Positions 1 to 16,431 of a stretch of DNA of 19,234 nucleotides are shown in pieces (within the stretch, counting starts at the first letter, position 1; the number at the start of each line of letters is the position of its first letter). The position numbers and the translations under genes are program-made. Under the pieces are notes generated by a model. That model was not told the DNA's origin. It did not search any database and saw only the letters and a list, made by a program, of their open reading frames with translations. Origin of the DNA: a virus. The stretch lies in UHGV virus genome UHGV-1599518, one strand, 5' to 3'.

Positions 1-238
1 TTACCATTCCACGCTCCGTCAGCAGCATGGTGTCTGCGGTAACACATTTCCCCGCGCTTGGTGGCCCGAATACTTCGACGATACGACCACATGGGAAGCC
101 GCCATCGTAACGACCAGAAATAGCTTTGTTTAACGGTGGAAAGCCTGTATCAATCCAATGAGTTACTTTCTGAATTTCGTCGTTGCTACCGATTTTCTTT
201 TTCAGAGCAAGTGCCAGTGCGGATTTTCCTTTTGCCAT
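1..238 (-). CDS. RecA/UvsX-like recombinase, N-terminal 79 codons only (gene runs off the left window edge)
   Basis: Minus-strand translation from ATG 238..236 (SD AAGGAG ~8 nt upstream) gives MAKGKSALALALKKKIGSNDEIQKVTHWIDTGFPPLNKAISGRYDGGFPCGRIVEVFGPPSAGKCVTADTMLLTERGMV. GGFPCGRIVEVFGPPSAGK matches the RecA N-terminal/Walker A block (E. coli RecA [20 protein letters not shown], recalled from memory). Absent from the ORF track only because it has no in-window stop. Confidence 0.8.
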   Translation of the reverse strand, partial: MAKGKSALALALKKKIGSNDEIQKVTHWIDTGFPPLNKAISGRYDGGFPCGRIVEVFGPPSAGKCVTADTMLLTERGMV

Positions 239-240
239 GA

Positions 241-507
241 TCAGGCTCCTTTTGTTTCGTTGATTCGTTTTAAAGCGGCGGATTCATCGAATACAATCGC
301 ATCGTGGTTAAGGAGTCTGGATACACGAGCGAGGATTTTTACGACCTGCTCGCTGACTAATCCAAACTCGCGATCTGTCGCTTTCATTCCGGCAGCGCCT
401 AGAATTGACGGCAGTGCGATGACAGCGTACTCACCGTGATAAAAGACAATCTCTTTTGCCAGTTGGGCAGGGGTGGTTGTAGCGCCATTGATAATCGATT
501 TAAGCAT
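241..507 (-). CDS. hypothetical small protein (~88 aa), translationally coupled between exonuclease and recombinase genes
   Basis: ORF-track ORF 241..513; the in-frame ATG at 507..505 overlaps the upstream gene stop (TAATG), and its TGA stop lies 2 nt before the recombinase ATG. No motif recognised. Confidence 0.45.
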   Translation of the reverse strand: MLKSIINGATTTPAQLAKEIVFYHGEYAVIALPSILGAAGMKATDREFGLVSEQVVKILARVSRLLNHDAIVFDESAALKRINETKGA

Positions 508-1451
508 TAGCAATACCTTTCGAATGGAAGAACAAACACTTCAAGGTCTTCAAGGAACGAACGGAAATTCAGCTCGTAGCACAGTTGCTCGAATGCTTTC
601 ACGTCACGATTGCCTTTGATTGTTTCGATTTCGGTAGGCGGAAACTTCGTCTCAATCAGGTTCATTAGCGTGATGTTTCTCTTGAACGCTTCGAGCATTC
701 GACAGCCTGTTTTCTCGTTGAAGGCATTCTTCGCTAGTTTGTTGAAGGCGGTCTTATGGCGTCCTTTGTCAACCACGATTGAGCCGTCGTTGATGCCGCG
801 TACCATCGTTGCGACACTTCCCCATTCATGCAGCAGCTCTTTCGCACCGCCAGCACCAATGCCACCAACACCGCTAATGTTGTCCGATTTATCGCCTTGT
901 AATGCTTTTGCTTCCAAAAATGCGCGAGGAGTAGCGAATCCTGTCAGCTCCGCAAATTGCTCAAAATTAACCTGCTTGTTTTTGGCGTCTTCGCGCAGGC
1001 TTACCCAGCTTACGTTTTCGCGAACTAACTGAAGCCAGTCGCTATCGCCTGTTAACAGATAGATGTGTTCAACGGTTGGCTGCGGTGCCATGCGGGATAC
1101 CAGCAGCCCGGCCAGATCATCCGCTTCTGCATCTTTTGCAATGAGTTGGGTAACTCCAAGCGCGGTCATCATTTTGAGGATGTATGGCTTCTGGATAGCA
1201 AAGCCTTCCTTCATCTTTTTCATATCAGGATCGTCGTCGCGATTTGCTTTGTAGTCCGGGTAAAAGTCGCGACGCTTGTCACTAAATCCATCCCAAAGAA
1301 TCATAGGTCGGGCATGGAGGATGGAGGCATAACGACGGACGTTCTTAACAAAGCCGAAAGCAGCCTGTACTTCCATTTCGCCGTTGTGCAATTTGTCAGA
1401 TTGTTGGTGGTAATAACCCAGGCTATTGCCATCTACGAAGAGATAATTCAC
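507..1451 (-). CDS. 5'-3' exonuclease / flap endonuclease (Pol I 5'-nuclease family)
   Basis: Translation contains NYLFVDGNSLGYY, EADDLAGLLV, LLTGDSDWLQLV and GDKSDNISGVGGIGAGGAKELL, the conserved blocks of bacterial/phage 5' nucleases. Start placed at GTG 1451..1449 (SD GGAAGG 9 nt upstream) rather than the track's GTG at 1502, because an intrinsic terminator occupies 1466..1496. Confidence 0.8.
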   Translation of the reverse strand: MNYLFVDGNSLGYYHQQSDKLHNGEMEVQAAFGFVKNVRRYASILHARPMILWDGFSDKRRDFYPDYKANRDDDPDMKKMKEGFAIQKPYILKMMTALGVTQLIAKDAEADDLAGLLVSRMAPQPTVEHIYLLTGDSDWLQLVRENVSWVSLREDAKNKQVNFEQFAELTGFATPRAFLEAKALQGDKSDNISGVGGIGAGGAKELLHEWGSVATMVRGINDGSIVVDKGRHKTAFNKLAKNAFNEKTGCRMLEAFKRNITLMNLIETKFPPTEIETIKGNRDVKAFEQLCYELNFRSFLEDLEVFVLPFERYC

Positions 1452-1465
1452 CGGTACATTCCTTC

Positions 1466-1496
1466 CAAAAAGTAAGGCGTCCGTAGACGCCTTACT
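1466..1496 (-). terminator. Rho-independent terminator downstream of the SSB gene
   Basis: On the minus strand, 15 nt after the SSB stop: perfect 11-bp stem AGTAAGGCGTC / GACGCCTTACT with loop TACG, followed by TTTTG. Confidence 0.55.
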
Positions 1497-1511
1497 GGTC
1501 ACGTAATGGGA

Positions 1512-2540
1512 TTACAGAGAGTCCAGCTCTCTCAGTAGGTCATCCAGACCTTCATCTTCCGTCGCAGATGCGGTTGCTACAGATGTCGCTGCGACTGCTT
1601 CAGACTCTTTGACTGATACGGCAACGGCAGCGGAGCTTGCTTCTGGTTTAAATTCAGTTTCAACGGCACGGAGGATTTCTTCATCAACCAGACTGGTTGG
1701 TTCAGAAGCCGGTGTGTGCGCGGTTGCTACAGCCGTCGCACCTTCTGTATGACCAGTGACAGAGCCAAATCCAGGTAGTGCCGCAGCCGATGTTTTCGCG
1801 GTTGAGGAAATTGCTGGTGCAGATGCTGCGGCAGTTGGTGCAGCGATGCCAATCAGACGACCCATAGTGCGAACTGTCGACAGAAGACGAGTTTCATCAG
1901 CCTGATTTGCGTATGCGATCAGATCATGCTGGGTGTTCCAGAATTTATCTTCGATATCGCCTTTGTAGACTTTACGCTTAGGCGAGACGTCATATTTGGT
2001 ATCGCGACCAGAGCCAGTACGTTTAATCAGGAATGCGTAGCCTTCCTCTTTGCTCAGTGGATTGCCGATATCATCAGCGATGTCTTCGGTGATTGCTTTG
2101 CAGATATCATCGAATACAGTAGACGGCAGCTCGATTAACTGGCATTTCTCAGCATCTGCGAAATCCTCACGAGCAGAAAGAATGCCGTTGACCAGGTAGC
2201 GAGGAGTGGCACGCATTTGACCGATGCGTTCTTCCATTGCTTTGTTACCCTTGTGACGAGCGCGACCTTCCATAACCATTTCGCATAGCTGACAAGCGCG
2301 ACCGTGAGTATGTTGCTCACAAATATAAGCGTTGGTTGCTTCTTTACCTTCCTCGTTCTGATACTTAACGTAGTGCATACCGAAAGTCTGGAAGAACTTA
2401 CCGTTTGGGTCGTCTTTATTCGGGAAGATGCGGATATAGTTGACGCCGTCTTTTAAGCGAGTCAGATCAACGTTGTTGCCACGTTTGGCGGCAATGTCTT
2501 CACGAGTTTTGTTAAGCAAATCAAGTAATGTCTTAGACAT
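1512..2540 (-). CDS. ssDNA-binding protein, phage T4 gp32-like
   Basis: ATG at 2540 with SD AAGGAG. N-terminal region IRIFPNKDD...CEQHTHGRACQLC has the gp32-like Cys/His zinc-site pattern, followed by a long Ala/Ser/Thr-rich linker and an acidic tail EDEGLDDLLRELDSL resembling the T4 gp32 C-terminus (from memory). Confidence 0.8.
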   Translation of the reverse strand: MSKTLLDLLNKTREDIAAKRGNNVDLTRLKDGVNYIRIFPNKDDPNGKFFQTFGMHYVKYQNEEGKEATNAYICEQHTHGRACQLCEMVMEGRARHKGNKAMEERIGQMRATPRYLVNGILSAREDFADAEKCQLIELPSTVFDDICKAITEDIADDIGNPLSKEEGYAFLIKRTGSGRDTKYDVSPKRKVYKGDIEDKFWNTQHDLIAYANQADETRLLSTVRTMGRLIGIAAPTAAASAPAISSTAKTSAAALPGFGSVTGHTEGATAVATAHTPASEPTSLVDEEILRAVETEFKPEASSAAVAVSVKESEAVAATSVATASATEDEGLDDLLRELDSL

Positions 2541-2657
2541 GTGTTTCTCCTTGTTGTGATTTGGCCGATGGCGCTATGCGCGTTGGGCTTTCGTTCATTC
2601 GTGGCTCTTTCGAGCTGTTAAATGATAGATCAGTACTTACTTATTATCTATCAAAAA

Positions 2658-3089
2658 TCAACGGGGAGTAATAAAGCGTTCAGAGCCTAATCGCTCTAAT
2701 TCAACGATGGCCATCTTTGACGCCTGAACGATCATGTCTCGGCGATGCGAAAAGGCGGCGACAGCATGTTTGTATATGTCTGCGATGTGCCGTGCTTCAT
2801 CCAACTTCTGCCGTTTAGACAGATACTGTGGGTTTGTTTTAACCTTAGCGTCCAGTACAGACTCGTTGAACTTAATGCCGTTCATACTCAAGTTCTTACG
2901 CTCTGTGTCGTATAGCTTTGCTTCAACAGCTTCAAGGTTAAGTTTTGCCTCTGCGACATCTCGATCTGCCTGCGCTAGTTTTGACCCATACTCCATTAAA
3001 AGCCGTGGCTGTTTACGCCATACTTCCTCAAGGTTGTCGCGGTCGAACTCCAGATCGGCCATGATTTTAGAAAAAATATCAGTGTTCAC
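2658..3089 (-). CDS. hypothetical coiled-coil protein, possible UvsY-like recombination mediator
   Basis: 143-aa ORF at the head of the minus-strand operon (GTG 3089, SD AGGAA upstream). Size, charge pattern and context (with UvsX-like and gp32-like genes) are reminiscent of T4 UvsY; the similarity is weak and recalled from memory. Confidence 0.5.
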   Translation of the reverse strand: MNTDIFSKIMADLEFDRDNLEEVWRKQPRLLMEYGSKLAQADRDVAEAKLNLEAVEAKLYDTERKNLSMNGIKFNESVLDAKVKTNPQYLSKRQKLDEARHIADIYKHAVAAFSHRRDMIVQASKMAIVELERLGSERFITPR

Positions 3090-3122
3090 TCTAATAGGTT
3101 CCTACTTATAAAATCTGTATCA

Positions 3123-3131
3123 ATTATATCA
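3123..3131 (-). promoter_or_regulatory. candidate extended -10 promoter (TGATATAAT) for the minus-strand replication operon
   Basis: Minus-strand TGATATAAT matches TGnTATAAT exactly, ~35 nt upstream of the 2658..3089 start codon. No good -35. Confidence 0.3.
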
Positions 3132-3297
3132 AACAGAGAATGGGTTTATGGCGTCATGTCAACTTTGTTCAGGGGAAAATATTGAGATCACCGAAGATAA
3201 TTAGTTGTCTTATTTTGGTAAGCTGTGCTGACCATCTTTAGGTCACATACATGAGATGGATGGGGGTGTGGCATGAACGGATGAAATTCAGTCGCCG

Positions 3298-3326
3298 TTG
3301 ACAGATGTCAACACTGTGAATAGAAT
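3298..3326 (+). promoter_or_regulatory. sigma70-like promoter with palindromic -35
   Basis: TTGACA (3298..3303), 17-bp spacer, TAGAAT (3321..3326), then GGAGG and ATG at 3344. The -35 lies in the palindrome TTGACAgaTGTCAA, a possible operator. Confidence 0.5.
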
Positions 3327-3343
3327 ACTATTATCGGAGGCGA

Positions 3344-3568
3344 ATGAAGCAACATCCGAATAAGCATATTCAAGCAGCCATTGACTATGCATTAAGTAAA
3401 GGCTGGATCTGGGTAGCAGCTGGTGGTGCTGCACATTGTTTTTGCAGACTGCGATGCGGTAATCCAGAAGGTGAACACAAAACTCACCAAATGAGCGTAT
3501 GGTCGACTCCGGGTAATCCCGAAAACCATGCCAAACAGATCAAACGAATGGTTGATCGTTGTAAATGA
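3344..3568 (+). CDS. small Cys/His-rich protein (74 aa), possible HicA-like fold
   Basis: ATG 3344 after GGAGG. The pattern GW-x7-GxxHxF ... P ... IKRMV loosely matches the HicA/YcfA toxin family layout (from memory); four Cys and several His could equally mean a zinc-binding protein. Confidence 0.6.
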   Translation: MKQHPNKHIQAAIDYALSKGWIWVAAGGAAHCFCRLRCGNPEGEHKTHQMSVWSTPGNPENHAKQIKRMVDRCK

Positions 3569-3572
3569 TTTC

Positions 3573-3594
3573 AAGGCGGCATTAGCCGCCTTTT
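3573..3594 (+). terminator. attenuator-like hairpin between the two genes of the module
   Basis: 8-bp GC-rich stem AAGGCGGC / GCCGCCTT with loop ATTA, followed by TT-GCAG; the U-tract is short, so at most partial termination. Confidence 0.3.
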
Positions 3595-3628
3595 GCAGAA
3601 ACTGTCCAACTATCTTCAAAGGAAAACT

Positions 3629-4192
3629 ATGGCGCTTTATAACTTCACTCTGACGCTCTCAGGCGTATCGTATGAGACGGAAGGACTGGAAGACGCGCTG
3701 TACCAAAACGGCTGTGACGATGCGCTAATTTGCGCATATGGAAACTCCGTCTATGTAGAATTTGACCGCGAAGCACAATCACTTGATGCAGCTATCGCAT
3801 CTGCGGTCGACAATATTGAATCAGCCGGTATCGGTGCAATTGTTGAATCCGTCGACTCGGCTCTTGTGGGCTTAAGCGATATCGCGGAACTGACAGACCT
3901 GTCTCGCCAGGCAGTGGCGTTGCTCAAAGACGGTAAGCGCGGAAGCGGCGACTTCCCTTGCCCTGTACAACGCATAAAAGGCCAGTCTCCTCTCTGGGAT
4001 TGGGCTGATGTGGCTGAATGGCTCATGAATAACGGACGACTTAAAGAGGGCGATCAAATTGTCCAAAATGCCCGAACTTTGAGTAAATGGAATCTGGCGC
4101 TTCGAAACAGCGTCTCGAAAGATTTCAACGAAATAGAGCAAATTGCGGAGAAACTGATTAAACGCCGCAAAGATATTGCGAAATGCGCATAA
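3629..4192 (+). CDS. DNA-binding protein with central helix-turn-helix (candidate antitoxin/regulator)
   Basis: ATG 3629 with SD AAGGA 5 nt upstream (the track start at 3593 is TTG and overlaps the hairpin). N-terminal ~90-aa domain, HTH-like segment IAELTDLSRQAVALLKDGKRG, then a basic C-terminal extension. Confidence 0.65.
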   Translation: MALYNFTLTLSGVSYETEGLEDALYQNGCDDALICAYGNSVYVEFDREAQSLDAAIASAVDNIESAGIGAIVESVDSALVGLSDIAELTDLSRQAVALLKDGKRGSGDFPCPVQRIKGQSPLWDWADVAEWLMNNGRLKEGDQIVQNARTLSKWNLALRNSVSKDFNEIEQIAEKLIKRRKDIAKCA

Positions 4193-4193
4193 T

Positions 4194-4226
4194 GATGCCC
4201 GCCAATTGGCGGGCATCTGTTCTCTG
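4194..4226 (+). terminator. Rho-independent terminator (perfect 24-bp palindrome)
   Basis: GATGCCCGCCAA|TTGGCGGGCATC immediately after the stop codon, followed by TGTTCTCTG. Confidence 0.5.
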
Positions 4227-4308
4227 TAAAGGTGTCTGGCATCGTCTGGTTCGTTAACGTTTACTAAACCAATGGTGACAAAAATTAGTTATCTTTGAAA
4301 AATAAAGG

Positions 4309-4521
4309 TTGCATGAAAAGAAGGGGTATGCGTTAATAGCATCGTTGGTTTGCAAGACAGACCTTATGTAAGCAGTTTTAGTAAAGCAGTCTCAGTTCAG
4401 TGTTATCTTCTGATTTCCCTTCTTCGTGAGTCTCCTCCTTAAGTGCCTAAGTAAGTCCCAATCTATACAGATCAAATTCTCGCCGCACTATGTGGCTCAC
4501 AAAATTAAGAAGGTAATATCT
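4309..4521 (+). promoter_or_regulatory. cspA-type promoter (TTGCAT-17-GTTAAT with upstream AT-rich UP-like element) and long 5' UTR
   Basis: TTGCAT at 4309..4314 and GTTAAT at 4332..4337; ~180-nt leader with segments resembling the E. coli cspA leader (cold-box-like TTGCAAGACAGACC, AAGTAAGTCCCAATC; from memory). Confidence 0.55.
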
Positions 4522-4737
4522 ATGTCTAATAAAATGACTGGTTTAGTAAAATGGTTTAACTCTGATAAAGGCTTTGGCTTTATTTCTCCTGCTGATGGCA
4601 GTAAAGATGTTTTTGTACATTTTTCGGCAATTCAGAGTAATAATTTCCGCACTTTGGAAGAAGGCCAGCAGGTCGAATTCTCTATCGAGAATGGGGCTAA
4701 AGGCCCAGCAGCAGCAAATGTCGTTGCTCTAAGCTGA
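4522..4737 (+). CDS. cold-shock protein, CspA family
   Basis: [38 protein letters not shown]...[10 protein letters not shown] contains the RNP1/RNP2 motifs of CspA-family proteins. The ORF-track ORF starts upstream at 4426; the conserved start is the ATG at 4522. Confidence 0.95.
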
Positions 4738-5012
4738 TTCAACGCTGATGATCCTCATTTCTACAATAACGAAGACGGTGTAAGCCTGAGTGGATAGATT
4801 TGTAGGATTGTACAAGTTGAATAAATTAGCATGGTAAGGCCATGCTAATTAAATCGACACAACGGCCAGTTTATTCCATAAAAGTGAATTGCCCATTGTG
4901 GCGAAATGCGGGGTTGCCGCATGAATAGTCAAAGGCAGAAGCTAACTGCCGGCATGGCAAAACAAAGTGCGTAAGAGGAGTGACTTCCTCAACAAGCGCC
5001 ATAATTCTTTAT

Positions 5013-5035
5013 AAACCCGCCAACAGGCGGGTTTT
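5013..5035. terminator. bidirectional Rho-independent terminator between the convergent csp and dnaE-like genes
   Basis: Stem AAACCCGCC / GGCGGGTTT with loop AACA, flanked by T-runs on both strands. Confidence 0.6.
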
Positions 5036-5040
5036 CTTTA

Positions 5041-8000
5041 TTACTTATTTATTGTCTCCGCGATATCAGCCAGAATGGCCTCCAGTCGCTCTCCTTCTTC
5101 CGGTCGGAAGTACAGGATATTCGGGTTAAATCCGTAGAAGACGGTTGCATCAAGCTCTGGGAAGTACTCCTTACAACCAATCAGATCTGATGGTTTACTC
5201 TTATTGTTAAATAGTGCGGTTGAACGACTACCACACGTCAAAATGTAGGTTGGTCGTACAAGATTAATTTCTTCCCGCATAAAGTCTGTGAACTGGCCTA
5301 TCTCGTCTTTGGTATAGTCTTTCTCTTTGTCCTTAACCTTCTTACAAACACCCGTGACATAAAGATCGCCCATGCGCAGATCTCCAACTGTCAGTAGTTT
5401 TGCCTTAAAGTCGTCGTATCCGTTCTCCATGAAGTAGCCGGTACGAGCGTCATTGCCGTTCGCATTGTCCAGAATGATCATGATTTTGGGTTTAATACCA
5501 ATAGTCGGGCGTATCAACTCCTCACCCAAGCCCATTTCAGCCGCCATACGTGTCATGAGTACGTTGATTTCGGCAGAACGCTTAGGATTCATTTCGAACG
5601 GACGTGATGCTTTAACAGCGTCAATGATGAGATTGCCCATCAGCTCAGCCTGGTCGCGCAGTCGTTCAGGATCAGTTGCTGGCAGACTGCCTGGCTCAAT
5701 TGACGCAAAAGCCCCTACTTTATGAAGCGACTCGCGTACACGACTGTTACATGCACGCTTCTCGACCGCTTCATCGAATTGTGCCACTGACTCGAATTTG
5801 CCACCAACTTTCTCACGCGCACGCATAATTGCCTGACAACCATTTTCAGAACAGCCTTTCACAGCAGAGAATGGCGCATACAGTGCCTGACTGCCGTCTT
5901 CGAGTGTGCGGATCTCAATTCGGTTAGATGACACATTAACGTCTGGTGGCAATACGCGAATGCCATAGGTCAGCGCATCCTTCACCAGCCCCTGATGCTT
6001 ATCCTCGCCCAGAATGGTGAGCGCAGCTGCGAAGAACTCAGCAGGGTAGTGCGTCTTTAGCCACATAGACTGATAACTGATTAAAGAATAAGCAACGGAG
6101 TGTGATTTATTGAACTGATAGGCTCCGTTTTTCTCAAATGCAGTCCATATCTCTTTTGCCTTCGTCTCAGACAGACCTGGATGTGACGTTGTAACGCGCA
6201 CAACTGGCATTGGCAGCTTCACTCCATGCTCCAACGCCTCTTCAACTGTCCTCAGAGTACCGTCCTCGCATTTAAAATGTTCTGCGCGATGAATCCGTTG
6301 TATTGCGCCATTTTCAAGCTCTACGTCGATCCACCCAGCTTGAGCCTGAATGACAAATTTCTCACCCATGCTCCTCATCTTTTCCATGTTCTTCTTACCG
6401 ATTGCTGAACGCACACCATCCGCCTCGGCCATTGTGAAACCAGCAAGAAGCCTTGTTGCGTTCATCGTTTGTTCCTGATAGAGAATCACTCCATTTGTTT
6501 CAGAGGTCAGTTCATCCAAGACAGGATGTAGTGATGTAGGCGTCATAAATCCTTTCGCAACGGAAACATAGTCATCCAACATGCCGGATTGAATCGGTCC
6601 CGGTCGGAAGAGGGCGGTAGTTGCGACAACGGTTTTGAAACTCATTGGCTCGATGCCACCGCCCAGATCTTTAAGCAGCTTACGCATGGGGCCGGACTCC
6701 AGCTGGAATACGCCCTGCGTGTACCCTGCAGCGAACCCATCCAGAACCTTGCGATCGTCCAGTGGGATAGCGTCGAGATTGATGTCTTCACCGGTACTCT
6801 CTTTGATGTAGCGTTTCGCGCTATCCAGAAGATCGAGTGTTGCCAGACCGAGAACGTCCAACTTAATCAGCCCCATCGCCTCGCAGTAACGTTTATCGAA
6901 CGCAATACATCGAGCATTGCCACGCAGCTCGACGGGCGTGCGCTCTACTAATGGAACGCCAGCGACGATCATCCCCGCAGCGTGACGACCAAAACCACGC
7001 ATCAGGCTTTGCAGCTTACACGCCGCTTTGAACGCTTCCGGGTTTTTCGTGGCGTATTTGTCCAGGCTGGCCAGTTGCTCGCGCAGCTCTTCCAGAGACA
7101 GGCTGTCGTCCTCCATATTCTTGAACTCTTTGGATACCGCCATATCCGCAGCATCGACACCGTAAATACGTGCAGTGTCACGCAGCGCAGATGCCGCGCC
7201 CAGATAGGTGAAGTTCGGAATGCCTGCAACGTAATCTTCGCCGTAGCGTTCATTCAGATACTCGATCACCTCATGGCGACGTGCCTGGCTGAAGTCCAAG
7301 TCCGCATCCGGCAAGTCGAGACGCTCAGGGTTGATGAAACGCTCAAACAGAAGACCGTGACGGATTGGGTCGACGTTGGTTATGCCTATGCACCACGCCA
7401 CCAGAGAACCGGCAGAGGAACCACGACCAGGCCCGACAGGAATGCCAGTTTCACGGCTGTGATTCATCAGATCGCGTACCATCAGGAAGTAACCACAGAA
7501 TCCCAGGCGAGTCAGCGTGTCCATTTCGTACTTTAGCCGCTCAACATAAACCCTGTTCTCAGAAGCAGGTGGTGTGTATCCAAACTCTTTTGTGGTAAGA
7601 CGTTTACGCAGCCCTGCAACAGCCAGTTTCATCAGCGTTGCAGGTTCGTCGTCTGCCATCTTGGGCAGTGCTGGTGGCAATTCATGCCAGCGCCATGTGC
7701 AGGCATCGATAATGGTATCCTGCGTTGTTGAGGCCATTGCAGCTGTTACCGGCACATCCATGCGAACGGAGAAGGCTTTAAGCGCCTCAAGGAGATGGCG
7801 GCGACCATTGACGGCGTTATCTCGCTGGTGGGGGATACGCAGACGATGCGGCTGGTCGATTTTGATGTTGTTCGTAACCATGTGCGCAATGTCTTTAATG
7901 TCTGCATCGTCGATCGATTCGTAATAAGCGGGATAGAACGCCACTGGCTCTATTTTCAATGCGCTGGCGACTTTCATCGCCCGGACGTTAATCTGGTCGT

Positions 8001-8559
8001 AGAATGGGGTAGGGTGCGGATAAACCACACTATAGAAGTTGTCTTTTCCACCCGCTGTAATCAGTGTGCTTATGATTTTTGCAAAATCGTTGCGTTGGAA
8101 CACGCTACCGATGTCGGAAGTAAGCAGGATGATGTTGCCTTTGGCATATGTAGAAACCAACTGTTCGAGCGAGAGACGCGGTACAAAGTAGAACTGTTCT
8201 CGTGTGTTGGCCGCCGTCATTAGTTCGCAGATGTCGCGATATCCTTGCTCATTTTTAATTAGAGCGGTAAACGAGTAGTTACGTCCCCGCTCTAATGATT
8301 CCATACATCTCATAGATTCTTTAGCAAGTTTAGCCCGGTGCTCGTATGTGGGATCATCAACAATGTTTAGTTTCACACCACAAATAACCGCCATGTCGTC
8401 ACCAGCGGCACGTTGTAGTGGAATAACGCTCGCAATATTCATGCTATCTGCTGAAATTACAGCGGTGTAGCCAGCTTCTCTGGCAATCTTCACCGCGTTT
8501 TCTGCTTTTAGAGCCGACTCCCCAAGTGAGAAGTCAGTTCGAACCATCAGTGCCTTCAT
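5041..8559 (-). CDS. dnaE: DNA polymerase III alpha subunit-like (DnaE-type C-family polymerase) with a C-terminal UDG-like domain
   Basis: 1172 aa. Contains [59 protein letters not shown] and [29 protein letters not shown], the DnaE palm/fingers signatures. ATG 8559 with SD AAAGG. Confidence 0.9.
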   Translation of the reverse strand: [1172 protein letters not shown]

Positions 8560-8737
8560 GTGTTTTTACCTTTCTGGTTTTTTTGATTTTGTCATTGGGG
8601 AAGCCTACGAACTTCCCATGCATCGAAATCGCAACTTCTTTTGCTGATTGGTGACAATCGGGCTTGTCTGGACACACCAGACAAGCCTTACCAGTTTCAG
8701 AAGCAGCGATAAGAGAGCCGAAACATCCTTTACGCAC
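8534..8737 (-). CDS. questionable small Cys-rich ORF (67 aa) in the dnaE leader
   Basis: GTG start 2 nt after the upstream stop, no SD, overlaps the dnaE start by 26 nt. Encodes C-x13-CxxC-x5-C, but the CxxC region coincides with a perfect 11-bp palindrome, so this may be structured leader RNA rather than coding. Confidence 0.2.
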   Translation of the reverse strand: MRKGCFGSLIAASETGKACLVCPDKPDCHQSAKEVAISMHGKFVGFPNDKIKKTRKVKTHEGTDGSN

Positions 8738-8739
8738 GA

Positions 8740-9975
8740 TTAACCAAATATTTTTTGAACAACTTCACGAGCCGCTTGTGCAGAAGCTGAAGGGAGTTTG
8801 TTAATGAAAGAACGCTCAATACCTGTCACAAAGTCGCCTCGCATCATTCCAATCTTGGCCGACAACAAAAGTTCACGAGGGCCAATTGGCTGACTGATAA
8901 GGTGTTCTTCGTATCCATCGCGAACGATACCGGCAAACTTAACCATCTTTTCTGCGTATTCATCCACGATACCGGCATTTATCAACATGTTGATCTCTGC
9001 CTCTTTGCTCATGTATTTCACATTCGAAACGATGCCAAAACGCGAAAAGTTCGCGGCGTTCTGGATGTTTGTACCCTGGTACAAGCCGGTTTCATCACCA
9101 GATCCGTTCGTGTTGCCAGTGCCAATGAAAGCAAACCGTTCATGCGGAGTAATGCGACGCCATTCTGGAGTCGCCTCTTTGATGACCAACGCTTCACCTT
9201 CCAGCACTGGCTGATACACGCCAAGAATCTGTGGAAACGCAAAGTCGTATTCATCCGCGAGGTAAACCCAGCCATGCTTCATTGCGAGCGCAAGCAAGCC
9301 AGGCTCGAAATACGTAGAGCCATCACGCGCCAGAATTTGTCCCGTAACATGAGCCTCTTCCATTGATGCTGTATGTTGGGCACGGATTAACGGACGATTG
9401 AGCAAAGCACATAGTTGTGTAGGCAATGAAGATTTGCCTGTTCCTGCATGACCCCACAAATAGCCAGGTATGCCAAGTTCAAGCATCATGAAAATGTCTT
9501 TGATCAGTTCGAAGTCGCCATATACGTATCCCTTCTTCACTTCTGGAACGAACTCTGGAAACGGCGTATTGACGTTGACGCTAACCATGAGCGGCGTCCC
9601 ACGTTTTGTTCCGAGTTCTTTCACCGTTACATTTAGCAGTTCGTGAGCTGCGACCAGATCTGTCTTGTACTCAACTGTGCCTGTGTAGCCTGGGCTACTG
9701 GTCACGCCAGATGATTTGGCCATTTCGCTTTTTTGCTCGGCACGTTTAGCTTGAATTGCATCAAGTGCCTTTTTCGATAGCGTTGGCTCATCTGGAAACT
9801 GTGTTGTGTACATTTTCAGTACGGTGTCAGGATCGGCATCTTTTACTGACTCAGGAATGCCCTCGCAATTACCATTGGCTACATGGGACTTAAAATAGTG
9901 AAATGATTTTCCGCACCACTTGCAAACAAGGTAATCAGAAGGATTTTTTTCATTTTGCAGTGCAGTAGTAGTCAT
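8740..9975 (-). CDS. cobS: AAA+ ATPase, CobS/MoxR-like (AAA_5 type)
   Basis: Walker A GHAGTGKS, Walker B WVYLADEYD. N-terminal CKWCGKSFHYFKSHVANGNC looks like a zinc-finger. ATG 9975 with SD AGGA. Confidence 0.8.
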   Translation of the reverse strand: MTTTALQNEKNPSDYLVCKWCGKSFHYFKSHVANGNCEGIPESVKDADPDTVLKMYTTQFPDEPTLSKKALDAIQAKRAEQKSEMAKSSGVTSSPGYTGTVEYKTDLVAAHELLNVTVKELGTKRGTPLMVSVNVNTPFPEFVPEVKKGYVYGDFELIKDIFMMLELGIPGYLWGHAGTGKSSLPTQLCALLNRPLIRAQHTASMEEAHVTGQILARDGSTYFEPGLLALAMKHGWVYLADEYDFAFPQILGVYQPVLEGEALVIKEATPEWRRITPHERFAFIGTGNTNGSGDETGLYQGTNIQNAANFSRFGIVSNVKYMSKEAEINMLINAGIVDEYAEKMVKFAGIVRDGYEEHLISQPIGPRELLLSAKIGMMRGDFVTGIERSFINKLPSASAQAAREVVQKIFG

Positions 9976-10070
9976 GCGTTTTTCCTTTGTTTTCTAATGA
10001 GCGTTCAACTTCTTATATAAATATATCATTATCTATCGTAAGTGGTTACTTATCGTTAAGGCTGTTTTGT

Positions 10071-12179
10071 TCACTTTAAAATGATACGAGATAGTTCAGT
10101 AACTACAGATGAACCAAGACTATCAACGCTCGTTACCAGGGCATGATTTGAGTAAAATCTCTCCGGTGCGTCAGTCATGATGCCAATTGCCATCAAATCA
10201 ATATCAGTCTGCGTTTCAATTTGCTTCGCAACTGAACGCAAATGAGCGTCAAAACCTCTCCCAACAGCCCACGGCGCGCCATCACTCAGAACAAGCATGA
10301 TCTTCCTGTCCTCCATGCGACCGGAAAATAACGATGCAAGGCTGGCTATGCTTTCACCATCCACGTTATTAAGAAGTGGGAATGTGTAGCCTACGCACCC
10401 CATACGTGAGCGAACTTCGCGAGAATTTACCTTTTCATTCCAATTTTTGATGATAGGTAGCATTAAAGATTCAAAGCGAGAGAACTCATACTTGACAGCC
10501 TTAAGTTCTCCTGCCGCCATATGACTACCAAATGTAGTGAAGCCGGTGATAATGTTGGGAACATTTATTCGATCAAGTGCATCGGCGATGGTATATGCAC
10601 TTGCAAGAGCTAGTTTTATCGTTTCGCCACTCATTGAACCCGATAAATCAATCACTTGTTGAACACAGGCGTTAACGGCTTTAGATTCTTCTTTTTTACG
10701 AAACACGCGATCATCATTCATTGTTAATCTGTAGATACTTGAACCATGAATGCGCCCCCGACGCTGGCCAGGTATAAACTGAACTCTGTTTCTGCTTGCT
10801 ATTGCACGTTCCAGGTCTTTTGCCAGCGTCGACGAAACACCTGACGAAAGGTGCTTTTCAATATATTTGTCGAAGAGTTGGTTGCCTTCAGGAACGATGC
10901 GATAACGGCTGATTGGATATCCACCTAAATCAATATCGGAGAATGTTTTAATAAGCCGTTTGATATGGGCTTCTGCCTGATCAATCGAGCCGATGAAGTC
11001 GTATGAGCGATTGTATGGCCTGTATTCGCTTTTCGAGCTTTCTGTTAACTCGCTTTTAATCGTTTCGGATAGCGCATCTTCTGTCATGCCTCCGACTTCA
11101 TCTTCCATGCTATCCAACTCCTCTAAAGCCTCTTCCAGACTCATTTTTGACGGAGTTGGAATGTCTGAAGAGCCGTCTTCTGTCGATTTTCTTTTTTCGT
11201 GGTCAGTGGTAAATGATTCTGACGCCGCGTTATCAGAAGCACCAGAATCTGATACCTCTTTATCATTTTCTGTATCATCGAATATTGTTTCTGATGATTC
11301 AGAATTATCTGAATCATCACTGTCGTTATTATCATGTTTGTGCTTACTGTGTGATTCTGATTTGATAGATTTGTGATTATCTAACGCTGAGGGTGTCTCA
11401 TGATCTTCGTTGTCTTCATTGTTTTCTCCAGAGGCATCCGTCTGGTCAGCGTCTGAAGGATCGGAAGTTTTTCCCGGAGCTGACTCCTTACCTTTGCTTT
11501 CACTTTCAGTGTCTTTGAGGATCTTAGCTATGGTCGCAGCCACCTTTACACAATCCTCGGTGCAAGACATGTTACGCACGGCCACATCGATACCATGTTC
11601 TTTTAATAATGAAATTGGTTTCTCAATGACAGGCCAATATTCATCCATGAAATCTACGAACGGTGCTTGGCCATCCCAGGCTCTTACAACCGGACAGAGA
11701 AAGAAGTTTAGAAAAAGCGCGCGCTGATCTTTGCCACAATAAGCAATAGCCTCTGAAGCCTTTGGTTTAAAGACTTTTTCGATTATAAGGCGCTGAGTTG
11801 CCATCAGATTACGTCTTGTTCCGTTAAAGACCTGACCCATTTTTCGCTCGATGAACACGTCTTCTAAGGCATTCCATAGCGACCAGGAAGGAACGCGTCC
11901 TTTTTCTCTCATTTTGTTGGACACACGAATATCGGTAAACAAAATGTGAGCAACCTCATGATCGAGAAATCCGCGCACAGCATTCATCAATGCCGGTGTT
12001 GCGTTATCCGGGATTGATGGGATGTTTACGAGAATTGGCTCTCCATCATCGTTATAGCGTACATAAGCGTCGTCCCCTCGTTCTGCAACAGGGATGTTTT
12101 TACCTGAAAGGAGAGCGACTACTCGTTTTACACTGTCACGGAAGTCCTGAACCTCTTTGATGGAACGTTTTTTAGACAT
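10071..12179 (-). CDS. cobT: CobT-like protein with C-terminal von Willebrand factor A domain
   Basis: 702 aa. C-terminal MIDAS motif VIDLSGSMSG and a downstream DG motif; a long central Asp/Ser/Glu-rich low-complexity region (roughly residues 220-380). ATG 12179 with SD AGGA. Confidence 0.8.
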   Translation of the reverse strand: MSKKRSIKEVQDFRDSVKRVVALLSGKNIPVAERGDDAYVRYNDDGEPILVNIPSIPDNATPALMNAVRGFLDHEVAHILFTDIRVSNKMREKGRVPSWSLWNALEDVFIERKMGQVFNGTRRNLMATQRLIIEKVFKPKASEAIAYCGKDQRALFLNFFLCPVVRAWDGQAPFVDFMDEYWPVIEKPISLLKEHGIDVAVRNMSCTEDCVKVAATIAKILKDTESESKGKESAPGKTSDPSDADQTDASGENNEDNEDHETPSALDNHKSIKSESHSKHKHDNNDSDDSDNSESSETIFDDTENDKEVSDSGASDNAASESFTTDHEKRKSTEDGSSDIPTPSKMSLEEALEELDSMEDEVGGMTEDALSETIKSELTESSKSEYRPYNRSYDFIGSIDQAEAHIKRLIKTFSDIDLGGYPISRYRIVPEGNQLFDKYIEKHLSSGVSSTLAKDLERAIASRNRVQFIPGQRRGRIHGSSIYRLTMNDDRVFRKKEESKAVNACVQQVIDLSGSMSGETIKLALASAYTIADALDRINVPNIITGFTTFGSHMAAGELKAVKYEFSRFESLMLPIIKNWNEKVNSREVRSRMGCVGYTFPLLNNVDGESIASLASLFSGRMEDRKIMLVLSDGAPWAVGRGFDAHLRSVAKQIETQTDIDLMAIGIMTDAPERFYSNHALVTSVDSLGSSVVTELSRIILK

Positions 12180-12277
12180 GGCTAATCCTTTGTTATGAAA
12201 ACAAATTATTTACTAGTGTGTTTAATGTAGCACTGCGCGAACAGGGAACTAAGCCATTCGCGCAGGGAGAAGAGGGG

Positions 12278-12490
12278 TTAACAGATTCTGACGGCTAAAG
12301 ACCAGGAGCCGGTATTGAGAAGCGTGAAGCGTTTGTTGTTAAGTTCGAATATAAAGCCAGTTGTGTCATTCACACCAACCTGAATCTGCTCATTCGGTAG
12401 ATCGGTGAGGATGTCAGCTACACACTCATCAGCTAATTTCTGTACGTGTCCGATCTCAAGAGCGATTAGGCTGGAAATAGTGGTGTTCAT
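12278..12490 (-). CDS. hypothetical protein (70 aa)
   Basis: ATG start with weak SD, immediately upstream of the cobT-like gene. No motif recognised. Confidence 0.35.
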   Translation of the reverse strand: MNTTISSLIALEIGHVQKLADECVADILTDLPNEQIQVGVNDTTGFIFELNNKRFTLLNTGSWSLAVRIC

Positions 12491-12667
12491 TCAATCAATC
12501 CATTCTAACTTATACTATGGTAAGGAATACTACTAAAATTTGTATCAATACTGAATACATTCATATCATATGCAAGTTGATTTTCTTACCTGTTTTGGGC
12601 TAATTTTTCTCCGTGCAATGGCCTTTAACCGGTCTTTTAAGTGCCTATCGAAAAAAATGATAATAGC

Positions 12668-12710
12668 TTTACAACCCTAACCTTTGATGTAATATCGGTA
12701 AGCACTTACC
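12668..12710 (+). promoter_or_regulatory. candidate promoter with palindromic operator at +1
   Basis: TTTACA (12668..12673), 16-bp spacer, TAATAT (12690..12695), followed by the 14-bp palindrome GGTAAGCACTTACC (12697..12710), about 30 nt upstream of the HTH gene ATG. Confidence 0.4.
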
Positions 12711-12741
12711 AGAGAGAATTGAACGCGCAAAGGTTGTAACC

Positions 12742-13128
12742 ATGTCTGATAACAAGATTGAATTTATAGAAAGTCGCTACGCTGCTTTTATCGCAGGGTT
12801 GATTGAATCCTCACCTATGAGCCAGGCCCAGATAGCCAAAACAATTGGGTATAAAAACGCCAACAACCTTTCTTTAATTAAAAGCGGCAAAATTCCTTTG
12901 CCTATCGATAAGGTTCGTCCGCTGGCGCTGGCACTGGGCATTGAGCCAAGTCGTCTTATGATGATGGTGCTGGAAGAACGCCAACCCGAACTCGCAGCAT
13001 TTTTATACAAAGAAGGCACTGCTCCTCTTAACGAGGACGAAAAACAGGTTCTTGCTGCATATAACGAGCGATTCGGTAAAGAGAAAGGCGCATCACAAAA
13101 GGTTGTTGAGGCCATAAAGTCTCTATGA
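12742..13128 (+). CDS. XRE-family helix-turn-helix transcriptional regulator
   Basis: HTH segment MSQAQIAKTIGYKNANNLSLIKSGKIPLPIDKVRPLALALGIEP. ATG 12742 with SD AAAGG. The 3' end overlaps the convergent integrase gene by 6 nt. Confidence 0.75.
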   Translation: MSDNKIEFIESRYAAFIAGLIESSPMSQAQIAKTIGYKNANNLSLIKSGKIPLPIDKVRPLALALGIEPSRLMMMVLEERQPELAAFLYKEGTAPLNEDEKQVLAAYNERFGKEKGASQKVVEAIKSL

Positions 13129-14226: not shown

Positions 14227-14404
14227 ATGACAATCACCGAGTTACGCCGATGCACTGTATAAGTAAACAGTATATTAGGCATAGATTCTTATAGGATCAA
14301 GAGTAAAAGTAACTCATTTTCAGCAATGATTCCATACATAGTAGGTATGGAATCATTTTGACGTTGTTTTTTGAATTTTAAGGGAAATGGGAGTGAGTTT
14401 GGTG

Positions 14405-14432
14405 GGAATAAAAACGGCTCCTGTGAGCCGTT
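14405..14432 (-). terminator. Rho-independent terminator for the glutaredoxin gene
   Basis: Minus strand: stop TGA, then stem AACGGCTC / GAGCCGTT with loop ACAG, followed by TTTATTCCC. Confidence 0.55.
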
Positions 14433-14436
14433 AAAA

Positions 14437-14682
14437 TCAGAGGGTGCTGACGTATGCAGCCAGTTCTGTGTATCCGCCAATCGGCTGGCCATCGATCAGC
14501 ACCTGGGGGATAGTCTCTACCGGTTTACCAACAATTTCACTTAGTTTTTCCTTGTCGATACCGGCAGTGGTGATGTCGATGTACTCATAATCACCGTTGC
14601 CATGTCCCTTTAGTTGCTTCGCCAGCTCGACCGCACGTTTGCAGTATGAGCAGTTATCTCGTCCGTAGATAGTGATCGTCAT
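14437..14682 (-). CDS. glutaredoxin (GrxA/NrdC-like), active site CSYC
   Basis: MTITIYGRDNCSYCKRAVELAK...GKPVETIPQVLIDGQPIGGYTELAAYV closely parallels E. coli glutaredoxin 1 (GKPVETVPQIFIDQQHIGGYTDFAAWV, from memory). CxxC motif is CSYC. Confidence 0.9.
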   Translation of the reverse strand: MTITIYGRDNCSYCKRAVELAKQLKGHGNGDYEYIDITTAGIDKEKLSEIVGKPVETIPQVLIDGQPIGGYTELAAYVSTL

Positions 14683-16031: not shown

Positions 16032-16131
16032 AGCTATTGTGATGGTCGGTACTGAACTCCGACACAGGGTTGTAGCAAGCCCCGCAAAGCGCGCACTACT
16101 GTAGTTGCGGCACATCAGCCTGTGCATTCAT

Positions 16132-16216: not shown

Positions 16217-16261
16217 AGCCAGATGCTTATCTTCTGGTTGCTTCAAAGAGCTGCACTTCCT

Positions 16262-16350: not shown

Positions 16351-16351
16351 T

Positions 16352-16427: not shown

Positions 16428-16431
16428 AATT

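What the first reader, a model, noticed from the sequence alone, without database searches (positions are those of the whole stretch)
1..238. Intein-like N-terminal splicing block inserted at the Walker A lysine of the RecA/UvsX-like recombinase
The translation reads …GRIVEVFGPPSAGK then CVTADTMLLTERGMV. RecA-family proteins have Thr/Ser after the P-loop lysine, followed by a hydrophobic helix. Here the next residue is Cys, and C-V-T-A-D-T-M-L-L…G matches the intein block-A pattern (Cys nucleophile, hydrophobic, x, x, D/G, T/S, x, hydrophobic … Gly). The P-loop K|T junction is a recurrent intein insertion site in ATPases. Only ~15 residues of the putative intein are inside the window, so this stays a hypothesis.
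Basis: partly seen in the sequence, partly recalled or inferred. Interest (0 to 1): 0.6.

Follow-up and report, generated by a model that had tools for sequence, protein, structure and literature searches.

The report
Mobile intein splitting phage-plasmid RecA P-loop
The window's left edge is the start of a real, full-size, self-splicing and self-spreading intein. It sits between the Lys and Thr of the ATP-binding loop of the RecA/UvsX-like recombinase of an SSU5-type E. coli phage-plasmid, and it is a textbook kind of element at a textbook site, though this one has apparently never been studied.

Summary
Window 238..1 (minus strand) encodes MAKGK…GPPSAGK|CVTADTMLLTERGMV, which is 64 residues of a RecA/UvsX-like recombinase followed by 15 residues that do not belong to RecA.

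- **Size of the gene.** In Escherichia phage Cyrano (pLF82; 99.3% identical over 2.6 kb) the gene runs to 779 aa. The Salmonella phage SSU5 and E. coli pRHB36-C16_2 alleles are colinear at 358 and 357 aa.
- **The insert.** They lack exactly 422 residues, C65…SHN486, followed by Thr. Removing them restores the Walker A motif GPPSAGKT.
- **Motifs.** The insert has all class-1 splicing residues (Cys1, T76xxH79, D404, H410, His421-Asn422, Thr+1) and two LAGLIDADG motifs. It passes the Pfam and TIGRFAM intein cut-offs.
- **Fold.** A modelled homologue folds like the TliVMA, PI-PfuI and PI-SceI inteins.

The element is mobile:
- It is present in 248 of about 831 plasmid alleles, across Escherichia, Klebsiella and Enterobacter.
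- Intein dS is 0–0.08, against extein dS of 1.1–2.3.
- The window's own N-extein is a mosaic, with a co-conversion boundary between window positions 65 and 77.

Intein dN/dS is about 0.15.

Verdict: a new member of a known kind, already flagged by annotation pipelines. I found no paper on it. Splicing and homing are inferred, not demonstrated. Interest is modest.

The parts
47..238 (-). N-extein: codons 1-64 of the RecA/UvsX-like recombinase, ending in the Walker A stretch GPPSAGK (Gly58-Lys64 = window 67-47)
   Evidence: Translation. Pfam RecA residues 26-68. PHROG 97 'UvsX-like recombinase', E = 8.5e-21. All 64 residues are invariant across the Cyrano and window copies, and SSU5 differs from them at T26S and T31S only.
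1..46 (-). First 15 codons (+1 base) of the intein: block A, with Cys1 (TGT, window 46-44) then VTADTMLLTERGMV. The remaining ~1220 nt lie beyond the window's left edge.
   Evidence: 46/46 nt identical to the Cyrano intein. TIGR01445 intein_Nterm aligns from model position 1 at this Cys in the full-length relative. PHROG 9666 positions 1-79.
53..65 (-). Co-converted flank of the homing site. Four synonymous positions (window 65, 62, 56, 53 = CDS 174, 177, 183, 186) carry the intein-donor variant. Further upstream (window 77, 98, 116, 137, 149) the window carries the variants of intein-less E. coli alleles L003 and L010.
   Evidence: Alignment of the window N-extein with the intein-plus Cyrano allele and the intein-less L003, L009 and L010 alleles. 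Junction alignment.
241..513 (-). Conserved 90-aa hypothetical gene directly upstream of the recombinase (context)
   Evidence: ORF list. PHROG 2207, unknown function. Annotated in SSU5 as SSU5_059.
507..1502 (-). 5'-3' exonuclease (FEN-type). Part of the same recombination/replication module and plausibly the resection activity used in double-strand-break repair during homing (inference).
   Evidence: Pfam 5_3_exonuc_N 2.2e-24 and 5_3_exonuc 5e-12.
1512..2540 (-). T4 gp32-like single-strand DNA-binding protein (context: T4-style UvsX/gp32 module)
   Evidence: Pfam gp32 1.7e-66.
2658..3089 (-). Gene annotated by the Cyrano depositors as the UvsY recombination mediator (context; not verified here)
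   Evidence: Cyrano CDS CYRAN_52. No Pfam hit. PHROG 2058, unknown function.

Best explanation
The recombinase gene of this SSU5-like E. coli phage-plasmid is interrupted by a 422-residue class-1 intein that carries a LAGLIDADG homing endonuclease. The intein sits exactly between Lys64 and Thr of the Walker A motif (GPPSAGK|T).

Protein level (inferred from motifs). The 86.6-kDa precursor cannot bind ATP, because its P-loop is split. The intein is expected to excise itself in four steps:
1. N-S acyl shift at Cys1.
2. Trans-esterification to the Thr+1 hydroxyl.
3. Cyclisation of Asn422, assisted by His421.
4. O-N shift.
This releases a 47.5-kDa intein and a 39.1-kDa recombinase with an intact GPPSAGKT loop.

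DNA level (inferred from population patterns). The free intein's endonuclease cuts intein-less alleles at the GGGAAA|ACG site when two related phage-plasmids share a cell. Recombinational repair from the intein-plus copy then copies in the intein together with about 3-30 nt of flanking sequence (homing).

Shown here:
- precise in-frame presence/absence polymorphism;
- intact catalytic motifs;
- family and fold membership;
- horizontal spread;
- co-conversion tracts;
- purifying selection.

Not shown: actual splicing, actual cleavage, and the full insert in the window's own source molecule.
For: - **Precise insertion.** Cyrano RecA is 779 aa, against 358 aa in SSU5 and 357 aa in pRHB36-C16_2. 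The alleles are colinear, and the gap is residues 65-486.
- **Motifs, in intein numbering.** C1; T76-F-R-H79; LMGYLIADG 125-133; FLRGYFELE 219-227; FDVAMPETHSF 403-413; SHN 420-422; then Thr.
- **Curated models passed.** Intein_splicing, LAGLIDADG_3 and TIGR01445.
- **PDB sequence hits.** TliVMA, PI-PkoII and PI-PfuI inteins.
- **Fold.** An AF2 model of a 43%-identical homologue at the same site has pTM 0.83. Foldseek matches it to TliVMA intein 7qss at 1.9e-19, and to PI-PfuI, PI-PkoII and PI-SceI.
- **Distribution.** The intein is in 248 plasmids, all at least 90% identical. The C-extein is in 831 plasmids, mostly 80-90% identical. 533 plasmids carry a contiguous empty site. The intein is in 120 of 5426 complete E. 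coli genomes, always on plasmids.
- **Horizontal transfer.** Intein identity is 97.2-97.4% where the flanks are 77-86% identical. Intein dS is 0.079 against extein dS of 2.34 for Cyrano versus Klebsiella p4727. Intein dS is 0 against extein dS of 1.36 for p4727 versus pBL12EC-1.
- **Co-conversion.** All intein-plus alleles share the 8 nt immediately 3' of the intein. Three of the four compared also share about 24 nt on the 5' side, while the Klebsiella allele L004 differs at two positions there; intein-less alleles differ in these flanks. The window's N-extein switches haplotype between CDS positions 162 and 174.
- **Selection.** Intein dN/dS is 0.15-0.16, and none of the amino-acid differences touches a catalytic residue.
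- **Same site elsewhere.** Relatives at 27-44% identity in other RecA proteins all sit at the same GK|C…HN|T site.
Against: - Only 15 intein residues are inside the window. The rest is inferred from relatives, and at least one plasmid carries an IS-truncated remnant.
- No experiment on splicing or cleavage of this intein was found in the searchable literature.
- The second LAGLIDADG motif ends E-C rather than D-G. Endonuclease activity is therefore plausible (Glu is used by I-DmoI and PI-PfuI, from my own knowledge) but not assured.
- The low divergence of the intein limits the power of the dN/dS estimate (11-13 non-synonymous and 22-23 synonymous differences).
Confidence: 0.9

Rival explanations
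1. The insert is a dead or decaying intein. It no longer splices or no longer homes, so the recombinase of intein-plus plasmids is in effect a pseudogene carried along by the plasmid.
For: - The recombinase may be dispensable, since the host has its own RecA (my inference).
- One IS-truncated remnant exists.
- More distant members of the intein family have degenerate endonuclease domains: P0007, P0012 and P0013 lack the LAGLIDADG motifs.
- The second LAGLIDADG motif is non-canonical.
Against: - All splicing residues are intact in four independent copies, and none has an internal stop.
- Intein dN/dS is about 0.15.
- About 240 of 248 plasmid copies are full length, and the listed ones carry a protein accession, so they are not annotated as pseudogenes.
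- Near-identical inteins sit in alleles whose exteins have dS above 1, which requires very recent transfers and therefore a working endonuclease.
Confidence: 0.06
2. The element is not purely selfish. It has been co-opted as a conditional switch: splicing, and hence recombinase ATPase activity, is gated by redox state, temperature or the lysogeny-to-lysis transition of the phage-plasmid.
For: - The insertion splits the P-loop, so the precursor must be inactive until it splices.
- Conditional splicing is documented for the archaeal RadA intein at the homologous P-loop site (PMC5790916; PMC4760082).
- The nucleophile is a Cys, and a second Cys lies at position -15 of the N-extein (Cys50).
Against: - Nothing here tests regulation.
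- About two thirds of alleles lack the intein, and closely related plasmids differ only by its presence. That fits a parasitic homing cycle better than a required regulator.
- The retained endonuclease domain and the recent horizontal spread are hallmarks of an actively selfish phase.
Confidence: 0.1
3. Chance resemblance, or a different event: the Cys after GK is a substitution, a frameshift, an assembly artefact or a non-splicing domain fusion, not an intein.
For: With only 15 residues in the window, the block-A pattern alone is weak evidence.
Against: - The fragment matches the first 79 positions of the 779-position intein-containing family at E = 2.3e-51.
- The same sequence occurs in hundreds of independently assembled plasmids.
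- The insertion is exactly in frame, and its removal restores Walker A.
- C-terminal HN|T and blocks B and F are present.
Confidence: 0.01

Closest known systems
'Classic' P-loop inteins inserted between the Walker A Lys and Thr/Ser (for example the mycobacteriophage TerL1-a inteins; Kelley et al. 2016, PMC5050341)
   Same: Identical insertion logic. The intein sits between the invariant Lys and the nucleophilic Thr of GxxxxGK|T in a phage-encoded ATPase. It has Thr as the +1 nucleophile and is sporadically distributed among related phages.
   Different: The host protein is a RecA/UvsX-type recombinase, not a terminase. The hosts are enterobacterial phage-plasmids rather than actinobacteriophages. 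The only PHROG cross-hit to a terminase intein is weak (5.2e-09).
Pyrococcus horikoshii / Thermococcus sibericus RadA inteins (P-loop of the archaeal RecA homologue)
   Same: [quoted passage not shown] The splicing domain has the Hint fold.
   Different: The RadA inteins are mini-inteins without an endonuclease, whereas this one keeps a LAGLIDADG domain. Sequence similarity is insignificant (E = 0.1). Conditional splicing is shown for RadA and untested here.
Mycobacterium tuberculosis RecA intein (PI-MtuI; NCBIfam NF007072 'intein-containing recombinase RecA')
   Same: A LAGLIDADG-type intein inside a RecA, with Cys1. PGAP gives some enterobacterial alleles the same product name.
   Different: The insertion site is different. 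In the NF007072 model the extein of the present protein aligns contiguously across model positions 71-253, which are downstream of its own insertion point. The intein matches the model's intein part only weakly (positions 305-514, E = 7e-6), and the total score of 100.8 bits is far below the 1024-bit cut-off. It is therefore not an allele of the mycobacterial RecA inteins.
Archaeal VMA / PI-PfuI / PI-PkoII / PI-SceI bifunctional inteins (solved structures)
   Same: They are the best sequence and fold matches. The LAGLIDADG domain aligns with TliVMA (E = 6.7e-08). The homologue model matches 7qss, 1dq3, 2cw7 and 1dfa. The architecture is the same: Hint-N, endonuclease, Hint-C.
   Different: Only 12-21% identity, with different exteins and insertion sites. 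The DNA target is unrelated.
Uncharacterised RecA P-loop inteins in metagenomic and bacterial RecA proteins (P0004-P0009, P0012, P0013)
   Same: The insertion site is homologous (GK|C…SHN|T), identity is 27-44%, and blocks B, F and G are conserved (…PTFDVxMPETHSFWSNGxISHN|T). These are the true allelic relatives.
   Different: Most sit in bacterial-type RecA proteins with a RecA_C domain. Several have lost the LAGLIDADG motifs (P0007, P0012, P0013). None is named or studied.

Membership tests
Intein (Hint-domain protein-splicing element, class 1) | In-frame insertion in a host protein, absent from orthologous alleles, whose removal restores a colinear host sequence | tested here: met
   779 aa against 358 and 357 aa. 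The gap is exactly residues 65-486, and removing it restores GPPSAGK|TFLATAAM. 533 plasmids have the contiguous empty site.
Intein (Hint-domain protein-splicing element, class 1) | N-terminal nucleophile Cys/Ser (block A) and block B TxxH | tested here: met
   Cys1 and T76-F-R-H79. TIGR01445 scores 36.6 bits against a 24.5 cut-off, aligned from Cys65 of the precursor. Both are conserved in homologues. Cys1 and block A are directly visible in the window.
Intein (Hint-domain protein-splicing element, class 1) | C-terminal blocks F and G ending His-Asn, followed by a Cys/Ser/Thr +1 nucleophile | tested here: met
   FDVAMPETHSFWSNGIISHN|T. Pfam Intein_splicing scores 44.2 bits against 35.8 and spans residues 73-486. 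This was seen in relatives only, because it lies outside the window.
Intein (Hint-domain protein-splicing element, class 1) | Hint (horseshoe beta) fold | tested here: met
   The AF2 model of homologue P0005 (43% identical, same site) has pTM 0.83. Foldseek matches it to inteins 7qss, 1dq3, 2cw7, 1dfa, 4oz6 and 1am2.
Intein (Hint-domain protein-splicing element, class 1) | Autocatalytic excision with ligation of the exteins | not testable with these tools
   Needs expression with a western blot or mass spectrometry. Predicted products are 86.6 kDa going to 39.1 + 47.5 kDa.
LAGLIDADG homing endonuclease (intein-borne, two-motif type) | Two LAGLIDADG motifs, each with a catalytic acidic residue, in an alpha-beta-beta-alpha-beta-beta-alpha pseudo-dimer | tested here: met
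   LMGYLIADG (Asp132) and FLRGYFELE (Glu226). Pfam LAGLIDADG_3 scores 63.3 bits against 22.5. Fold matches include I-DmoI and the endonuclease domains of PI-PfuI and PI-SceI.
LAGLIDADG homing endonuclease (intein-borne, two-motif type) | Site-specific cleavage of the intein-less allele, and gene conversion (homing) | tested here: inconclusive
   The evidence is indirect but strong. Intein dS is 0-0.08 against extein dS of 1.1-2.3. Co-conversion tracts are visible, and the window's N-extein is a mosaic. Cleavage itself was not tested.
Mycobacterial-type 'intein-containing recombinase RecA' (NCBIfam NF007072 / PRK09519) | Score above the curated cut-off, and an intein at the mycobacterial RecA-a or RecA-b site | tested here: not met
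   100.8 bits against a cut-off of 1024. The extein aligns across model positions 71-253 without interruption, so the insertion site differs.
RecA/UvsX-family recombinase (the extein) | RecA ATPase core with Walker A restored after intein removal | tested here: met
   Pfam RecA 3.2e-36, in two stretches flanking the intein. PHROG 97 'UvsX-like recombinase' 1.1e-91 for the intein-less allele. It scores below the TIGR02012 bacterial RecA equivalog cut-off (153.7 against 325.3), so it is a phage-type relative and not a bona fide bacterial RecA.

The most novel reading that the evidence does not exclude
The intein is more than a parasite of the recombinase gene. There are two ways this could hold.

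1. It acts as a conditional post-translational switch. Splicing would be gated by redox state or stress, for example through Cys1 and the N-extein Cys50, so that the phage-plasmid's own UvsX-like recombinase is switched on only in certain states such as induction or oxidative stress.
2. Its endonuclease serves as a weapon in competition between co-infecting SSU5-like phage-plasmids. It would cut the rival's recombinase gene and drive gene conversion of linked markers.

Either would make it a tractable E. coli-native model for intein function, in a species usually treated as intein-free.
Probability: 0.1. Interest if true: 0.6.

Novelty: new member of a known kind. Interest (0 to 1): 0.3.

Why it matters
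In kind it is ordinary: a class-1 LAGLIDADG intein at the classic Lys|Thr P-loop site of an ATPase.

It has some practical value:
1. It shows that natural E. coli, Klebsiella and Enterobacter isolates carry an apparently active intein on SSU5-like phage-plasmids. That is 120 of 5426 complete E. coli genomes and 248 PLSDB plasmids. I found no paper that mentions it, and a review of inteins in human pathogens contains no mention of Klebsiella, Enterobacter or Salmonella in its text.
2. The gene is inconsistently annotated as 'LAGLIDADG family homing endonuclease', 'recombinase RecA', 'hypothetical protein', or 'unknown function' in PHROG 9666. This hides a functional recombinase and could be corrected.
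3. The many near-isogenic intein-plus and intein-less plasmid pairs, with visible co-conversion tracts, give a ready natural system for measuring intein homing and its fitness cost in a genetically tractable host.

Tried and rejected
- **Structure of the exact intein.** I modelled the 43%-identical homologue P0005 instead.
- **Full-length protein cluster.** The search for homologous proteins with the intein returned only partial E. coli entries (P0001-P0003, P0010) and not the full-length 779-aa cluster. I ran no further search on it.
- **The window's exact source molecule.** No PLSDB plasmid covers more than 86% of the window. No complete E. coli genome holds the backbone/Tn3 junction. The full insert in the source therefore stays inferred.
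- **Literature.** Six searches found nothing on this intein: intein+SSU5, intein+phage-plasmid+RecA, intein+UvsX, intein+LF82, intein+RecA+Klebsiella+plasmid+homing endonuclease, and intein+Enterobacteriaceae+RecA+LAGLIDADG. The supplementary tables of Novikova et al. 2015, which might list proteobacterial RecA inteins, are not held.
- **Allele of the M. tuberculosis RecA intein.** Considered and rejected: different site, negligible similarity.
- **Base composition as a sign of foreign origin.** Uninformative: the intein is 48.3% GC against 46.9-49.1% for the exteins.
- **The partial intein in pSTK39-3-E-B.** I checked it as a possible natural mini-intein. It is an IS-flanked truncation remnant.

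Full report
**1. What is in the window**

On the minus strand an ORF starts at ATG 238-236, preceded by AGGAG, and runs off the left edge. Its 79 codons read MAKGKSALALALKKKIGSNDEIQKVTHWIDTGFPPLNKAISGRYDGGFPCGRIVEVFGPPSAGK | CVTADTMLLTERGMV. Lys64 is window 49-47 and Cys65 is window 46-44.

The Pfam RecA model aligns only to residues 26-68, so RecA homology stops at the Walker A lysine. The gene sits in a T4-style recombination/replication module on the same strand:
- a 90-aa hypothetical gene (241-513);
- a 5'-3' exonuclease (507-1502);
- a gp32-like SSB (1512-2540);
- a gene the Cyrano depositors call UvsY (2658-3089).

**2. Where the window comes from**

Window 1-2600 is 99.3% identical to Escherichia phage Cyrano (OV696614, the same 108,379-bp molecule as plasmid pLF82, NC_011917). 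It is about 80% identical to Salmonella phage SSU5 and to Klebsiella phage-plasmids. The window is therefore part of an SSU5-like phage-plasmid of E. coli. No plasmid in PLSDB covers more than 86% of it, because its right end carries a Tn3-family element that relatives lack.

**3. What lies beyond the edge**

In Cyrano the same ORF is 779 aa (L001:7363-9702, annotated 'RecA'). In SSU5 the orthologue is 358 aa. The alignment is colinear, with one gap: Cyrano residues 65-486. The insert begins CVTADTML… and ends …WSNGIISHN, and the next residue is Thr. Deleting it gives GPPSAGK-TFLATAAM, a canonical Walker A.

An E. coli plasmid (pRHB36-C16_2, CP057127.1; L003) whose backbone is 99.4% identical to the window over the 80% of it that aligns has the uninterrupted 357-aa gene. 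So presence/absence is polymorphic among near-isogenic molecules.

Records that match the window right up to position 1 continue into the full insert. In NZ_CP017847.1, for example, the backbone match ends at 93812 and the intein occupies 92592-93857.

**4. Is the insert an intein?**

Sequence models say yes:
- Pfam Intein_splicing scores 44.2 bits (cut-off 35.8) over residues 73-486.
- LAGLIDADG_3 scores 63.3 bits (cut-off 22.5) over residues 279-356.
- TIGR01445 intein_Nterm scores 36.6 bits (cut-off 24.5) and starts exactly at Cys65.

In intein numbering:

| Block | Residues |
|---|---|
| A | Cys1 |
| B | T76-F-R-H79 |
| LAGLIDADG 1 | LMGYLIADG 125-133 |
| LAGLIDADG 2 | FLRGYFELE 219-227 |
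| F | FDVAMPETHSF 403-413 |
| G | S-H421-N422, then Thr+1 |

The closest solved sequences are the Thermococcus litoralis VMA intein (E = 6.7e-08), PI-PkoII and PI-PfuI.

An AlphaFold model of a 43%-identical homologue at the same site (P0005; pTM 0.83) matches TliVMA (1.9e-19), PI-PfuI, PI-PkoII and PI-SceI, and through its endonuclease domain I-DmoI.

All defining sequence and fold features of a class-1, endonuclease-bearing intein are therefore met. Only the chemistry itself is untested.

**5. Is it mobile?**

Distribution:
- The intein DNA occurs in 248 PLSDB plasmids (Escherichia 123, Klebsiella 71, Enterobacter 41, Citrobacter 6, and others), all at least 90% identical and nearly all at least 95%.
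- The C-extein occurs in 831 plasmids, mostly at 80-90% identity.
- 533 plasmids carry a contiguous empty site.
- Among complete E. coli genomes, 120 of 5426 have the intein, always on plasmids.

Identity to Cyrano, segment by segment:

| Allele | Flanks | Intein |
|---|---|---|
| Klebsiella phage p4727 (L004) | 77-81% | 97.3% |
| Enterobacter pFJMB80067_1 (L005) | 80-86% | 97.2% |
| E. coli pBL12EC-1 (L006) | 80-86% | 97.4% |

By Nei-Gojobori, extein dS is 1.06-2.34 for these pairs, while intein dS is 0.079-0.083. Between p4727 and pBL12EC-1 the extein dS is 1.36, but the inteins differ at 1 of 1266 nt. The intein has therefore moved between long-diverged alleles, and very recently.

**6. Footprints of homing, including in the window itself**

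- In the four intein-plus alleles compared (L001, L004, L005, L006), the first 8 nt after the intein are identical. The last ~24 nt before it are identical in the window and in three of the four alleles, while the Klebsiella allele L004 differs at two positions. The window itself ends inside the intein, so it shows only the 5' flank. Intein-less alleles differ in these flanks at synonymous sites.
- The intein-less allele of p500465_152 (L009) is identical to Cyrano over the whole N-extein. Near the site it differs only at the third base of the +1 Thr codon (ACG against ACA in every intein-plus allele).
- The window's N-extein is a mosaic. At CDS positions 90, 102, 123, 141 and 162 (window 149, 137, 116, 98, 77) it carries the variants of the intein-less E. 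coli alleles L003 and L010. At 174, 177, 183 and 186 (window 65, 62, 56, 53) it carries the intein-donor variants.
- The simplest reading is that an L003-like allele was invaded, with co-conversion of 19-30 nt of 5' flank. The tract boundary lies between window 65 and 77.

**7. Selection**

Between the two intein variants dN/dS is 0.15-0.16 (11-13 non-synonymous and 22-23 synonymous differences). None of the replacements touches a catalytic residue, and there are no stops in four copies. The exteins are under very strong constraint (dN/dS 0.01-0.05). This fits an intein that must still splice, and an endonuclease still under selection, although the counts are small.

**8. Mechanism (inferred)**

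The precursor (86.6 kDa) has its P-loop split and should be unable to bind ATP. Standard class-1 splicing (Cys1 thioester, transfer to Thr+1, Asn422 cyclisation, O-N shift) would give a 39.1-kDa recombinase and a 47.5-kDa intein/endonuclease.

The endonuclease would recognise the uninterrupted Walker A coding sequence of a co-resident intein-less phage-plasmid. The break would then be repaired from the intein-plus copy, possibly by the element's own UvsX/gp32/exonuclease module (my inference).

**9. Comparison with known systems**

- The Lys|Thr position is described as the 'classic' P-loop intein insertion (PMC5050341).
- Archaeal RadA carries mini-inteins in its P-loop, with conditional splicing (PMC5790916).
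- A 2015 survey counted 56 RecA inteins, including some in Proteobacteria (PMC4760082).
- The present intein is not an allele of the M. tuberculosis RecA intein. It scores far below NF007072's cut-off, and the extein aligns uninterrupted across the region where it is itself inserted.
- Its real relatives (27-44% identity) are unnamed inteins at the same GK|C…HN|T site of other phage-type and bacterial-type RecA proteins from metagenomes and one bacterial genome. A more distant one sits in a RuvB P-loop.

**10. Novelty**

RefSeq already labels some alleles 'intein-containing recombinase RecA' and others 'LAGLIDADG family homing endonuclease'. PHROGs lists the family (phrog_9666) as of unknown function. 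Six literature searches found no paper on it.

I rate it a new, uncharacterised member of a well-known kind. It lies mainly in a natural, tractable E. coli homing system and in cleaning up the annotation.

Noticed in passing
window 16524-19234: A Tn3-family transposon end. The 38-bp terminal inverted repeat GGGGTTTGAGGGCCAATGGAACGAAAACGTACGCTAAG starts at about 16524. The TnpA gene is on the minus strand, with its stop at 16557 and its frame open through the right edge of the window. Most related phage-plasmids lack it, and no complete E. coli genome has this backbone/transposon junction.
   Followed up: partly
window 15945-16518 (- strand): Three tRNA genes on the phage-plasmid: tRNA-Ser(tga) 15945-16031, tRNA-Thr(tgt) 16352-16427 and tRNA-Tyr(gta) 16432-16518. 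The Tn3-family end lies about 5 nt beyond tRNA-Tyr.
   Followed up: no
window 4344-4762 (+ strand): A complete cspA thermoregulator RNA (Rfam RF01766, 185.7 bits) with a CspA-like cold-shock protein CDS (4426-4737; Pfam CSD 4e-33) is carried by the phage-plasmid.
   Followed up: no
window 3344-4192 (+ strand): A pair of small genes annotated in Cyrano as HicA toxin and HicB antitoxin (74 and 199 aa). Neither reaches any Pfam model at E <= 0.001.
   Followed up: no
window 5041-14682 (- strand): The rest of the backbone comprises a 1172-aa DnaE-type DNA polymerase III alpha with no intein (5041-8559), an AAA_5 ATPase (8740-9975), a CobT/VWA protein (10071-12179), a tyrosine integrase (13123-14226) and a glutaredoxin-like protein (14437-14682).
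   Followed up: no
L008 (NZ_CP162200.1 86333-87597): One E. coli plasmid keeps only the last ~383 nt of the intein fused to the C-extein, next to IS3/IS30/IS110 debris. It is annotated simply 'recombinase'. This is an IS-mediated truncation, not a mini-intein.
   Followed up: yes
L004 vs L006 (intein 1266 nt): The inteins of a Klebsiella lake phage (p4727, China) and an E. coli duck plasmid (pBL12EC-1, China) differ at 1 nt, while their exteins have dS 1.36. This is an extremely recent transfer between plasmid lineages resident in different genera.
   Followed up: partly
public annotation of the same gene: The product names for one and the same intein-containing gene are inconsistent: 'LAGLIDADG family homing endonuclease', 'recombinase RecA', 'intein-containing recombinase RecA', 'hypothetical protein', and PHROG 9666 'unknown function'. 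In CP057127.1 the intact intein-less recombinase is missing from the PLSDB gene table.
   Followed up: no
L007 (GCA_027484465.1, contig JAIXSX010000122.1, gene 3001-5166): A bacterial-type RecA (721 aa, with a RecA_C domain) on a 550-kb contig carries a related intein (37% identity over its N-terminal part) at the same P-loop site. Its endonuclease region is degenerate. The organism was not identified.
   Followed up: partly
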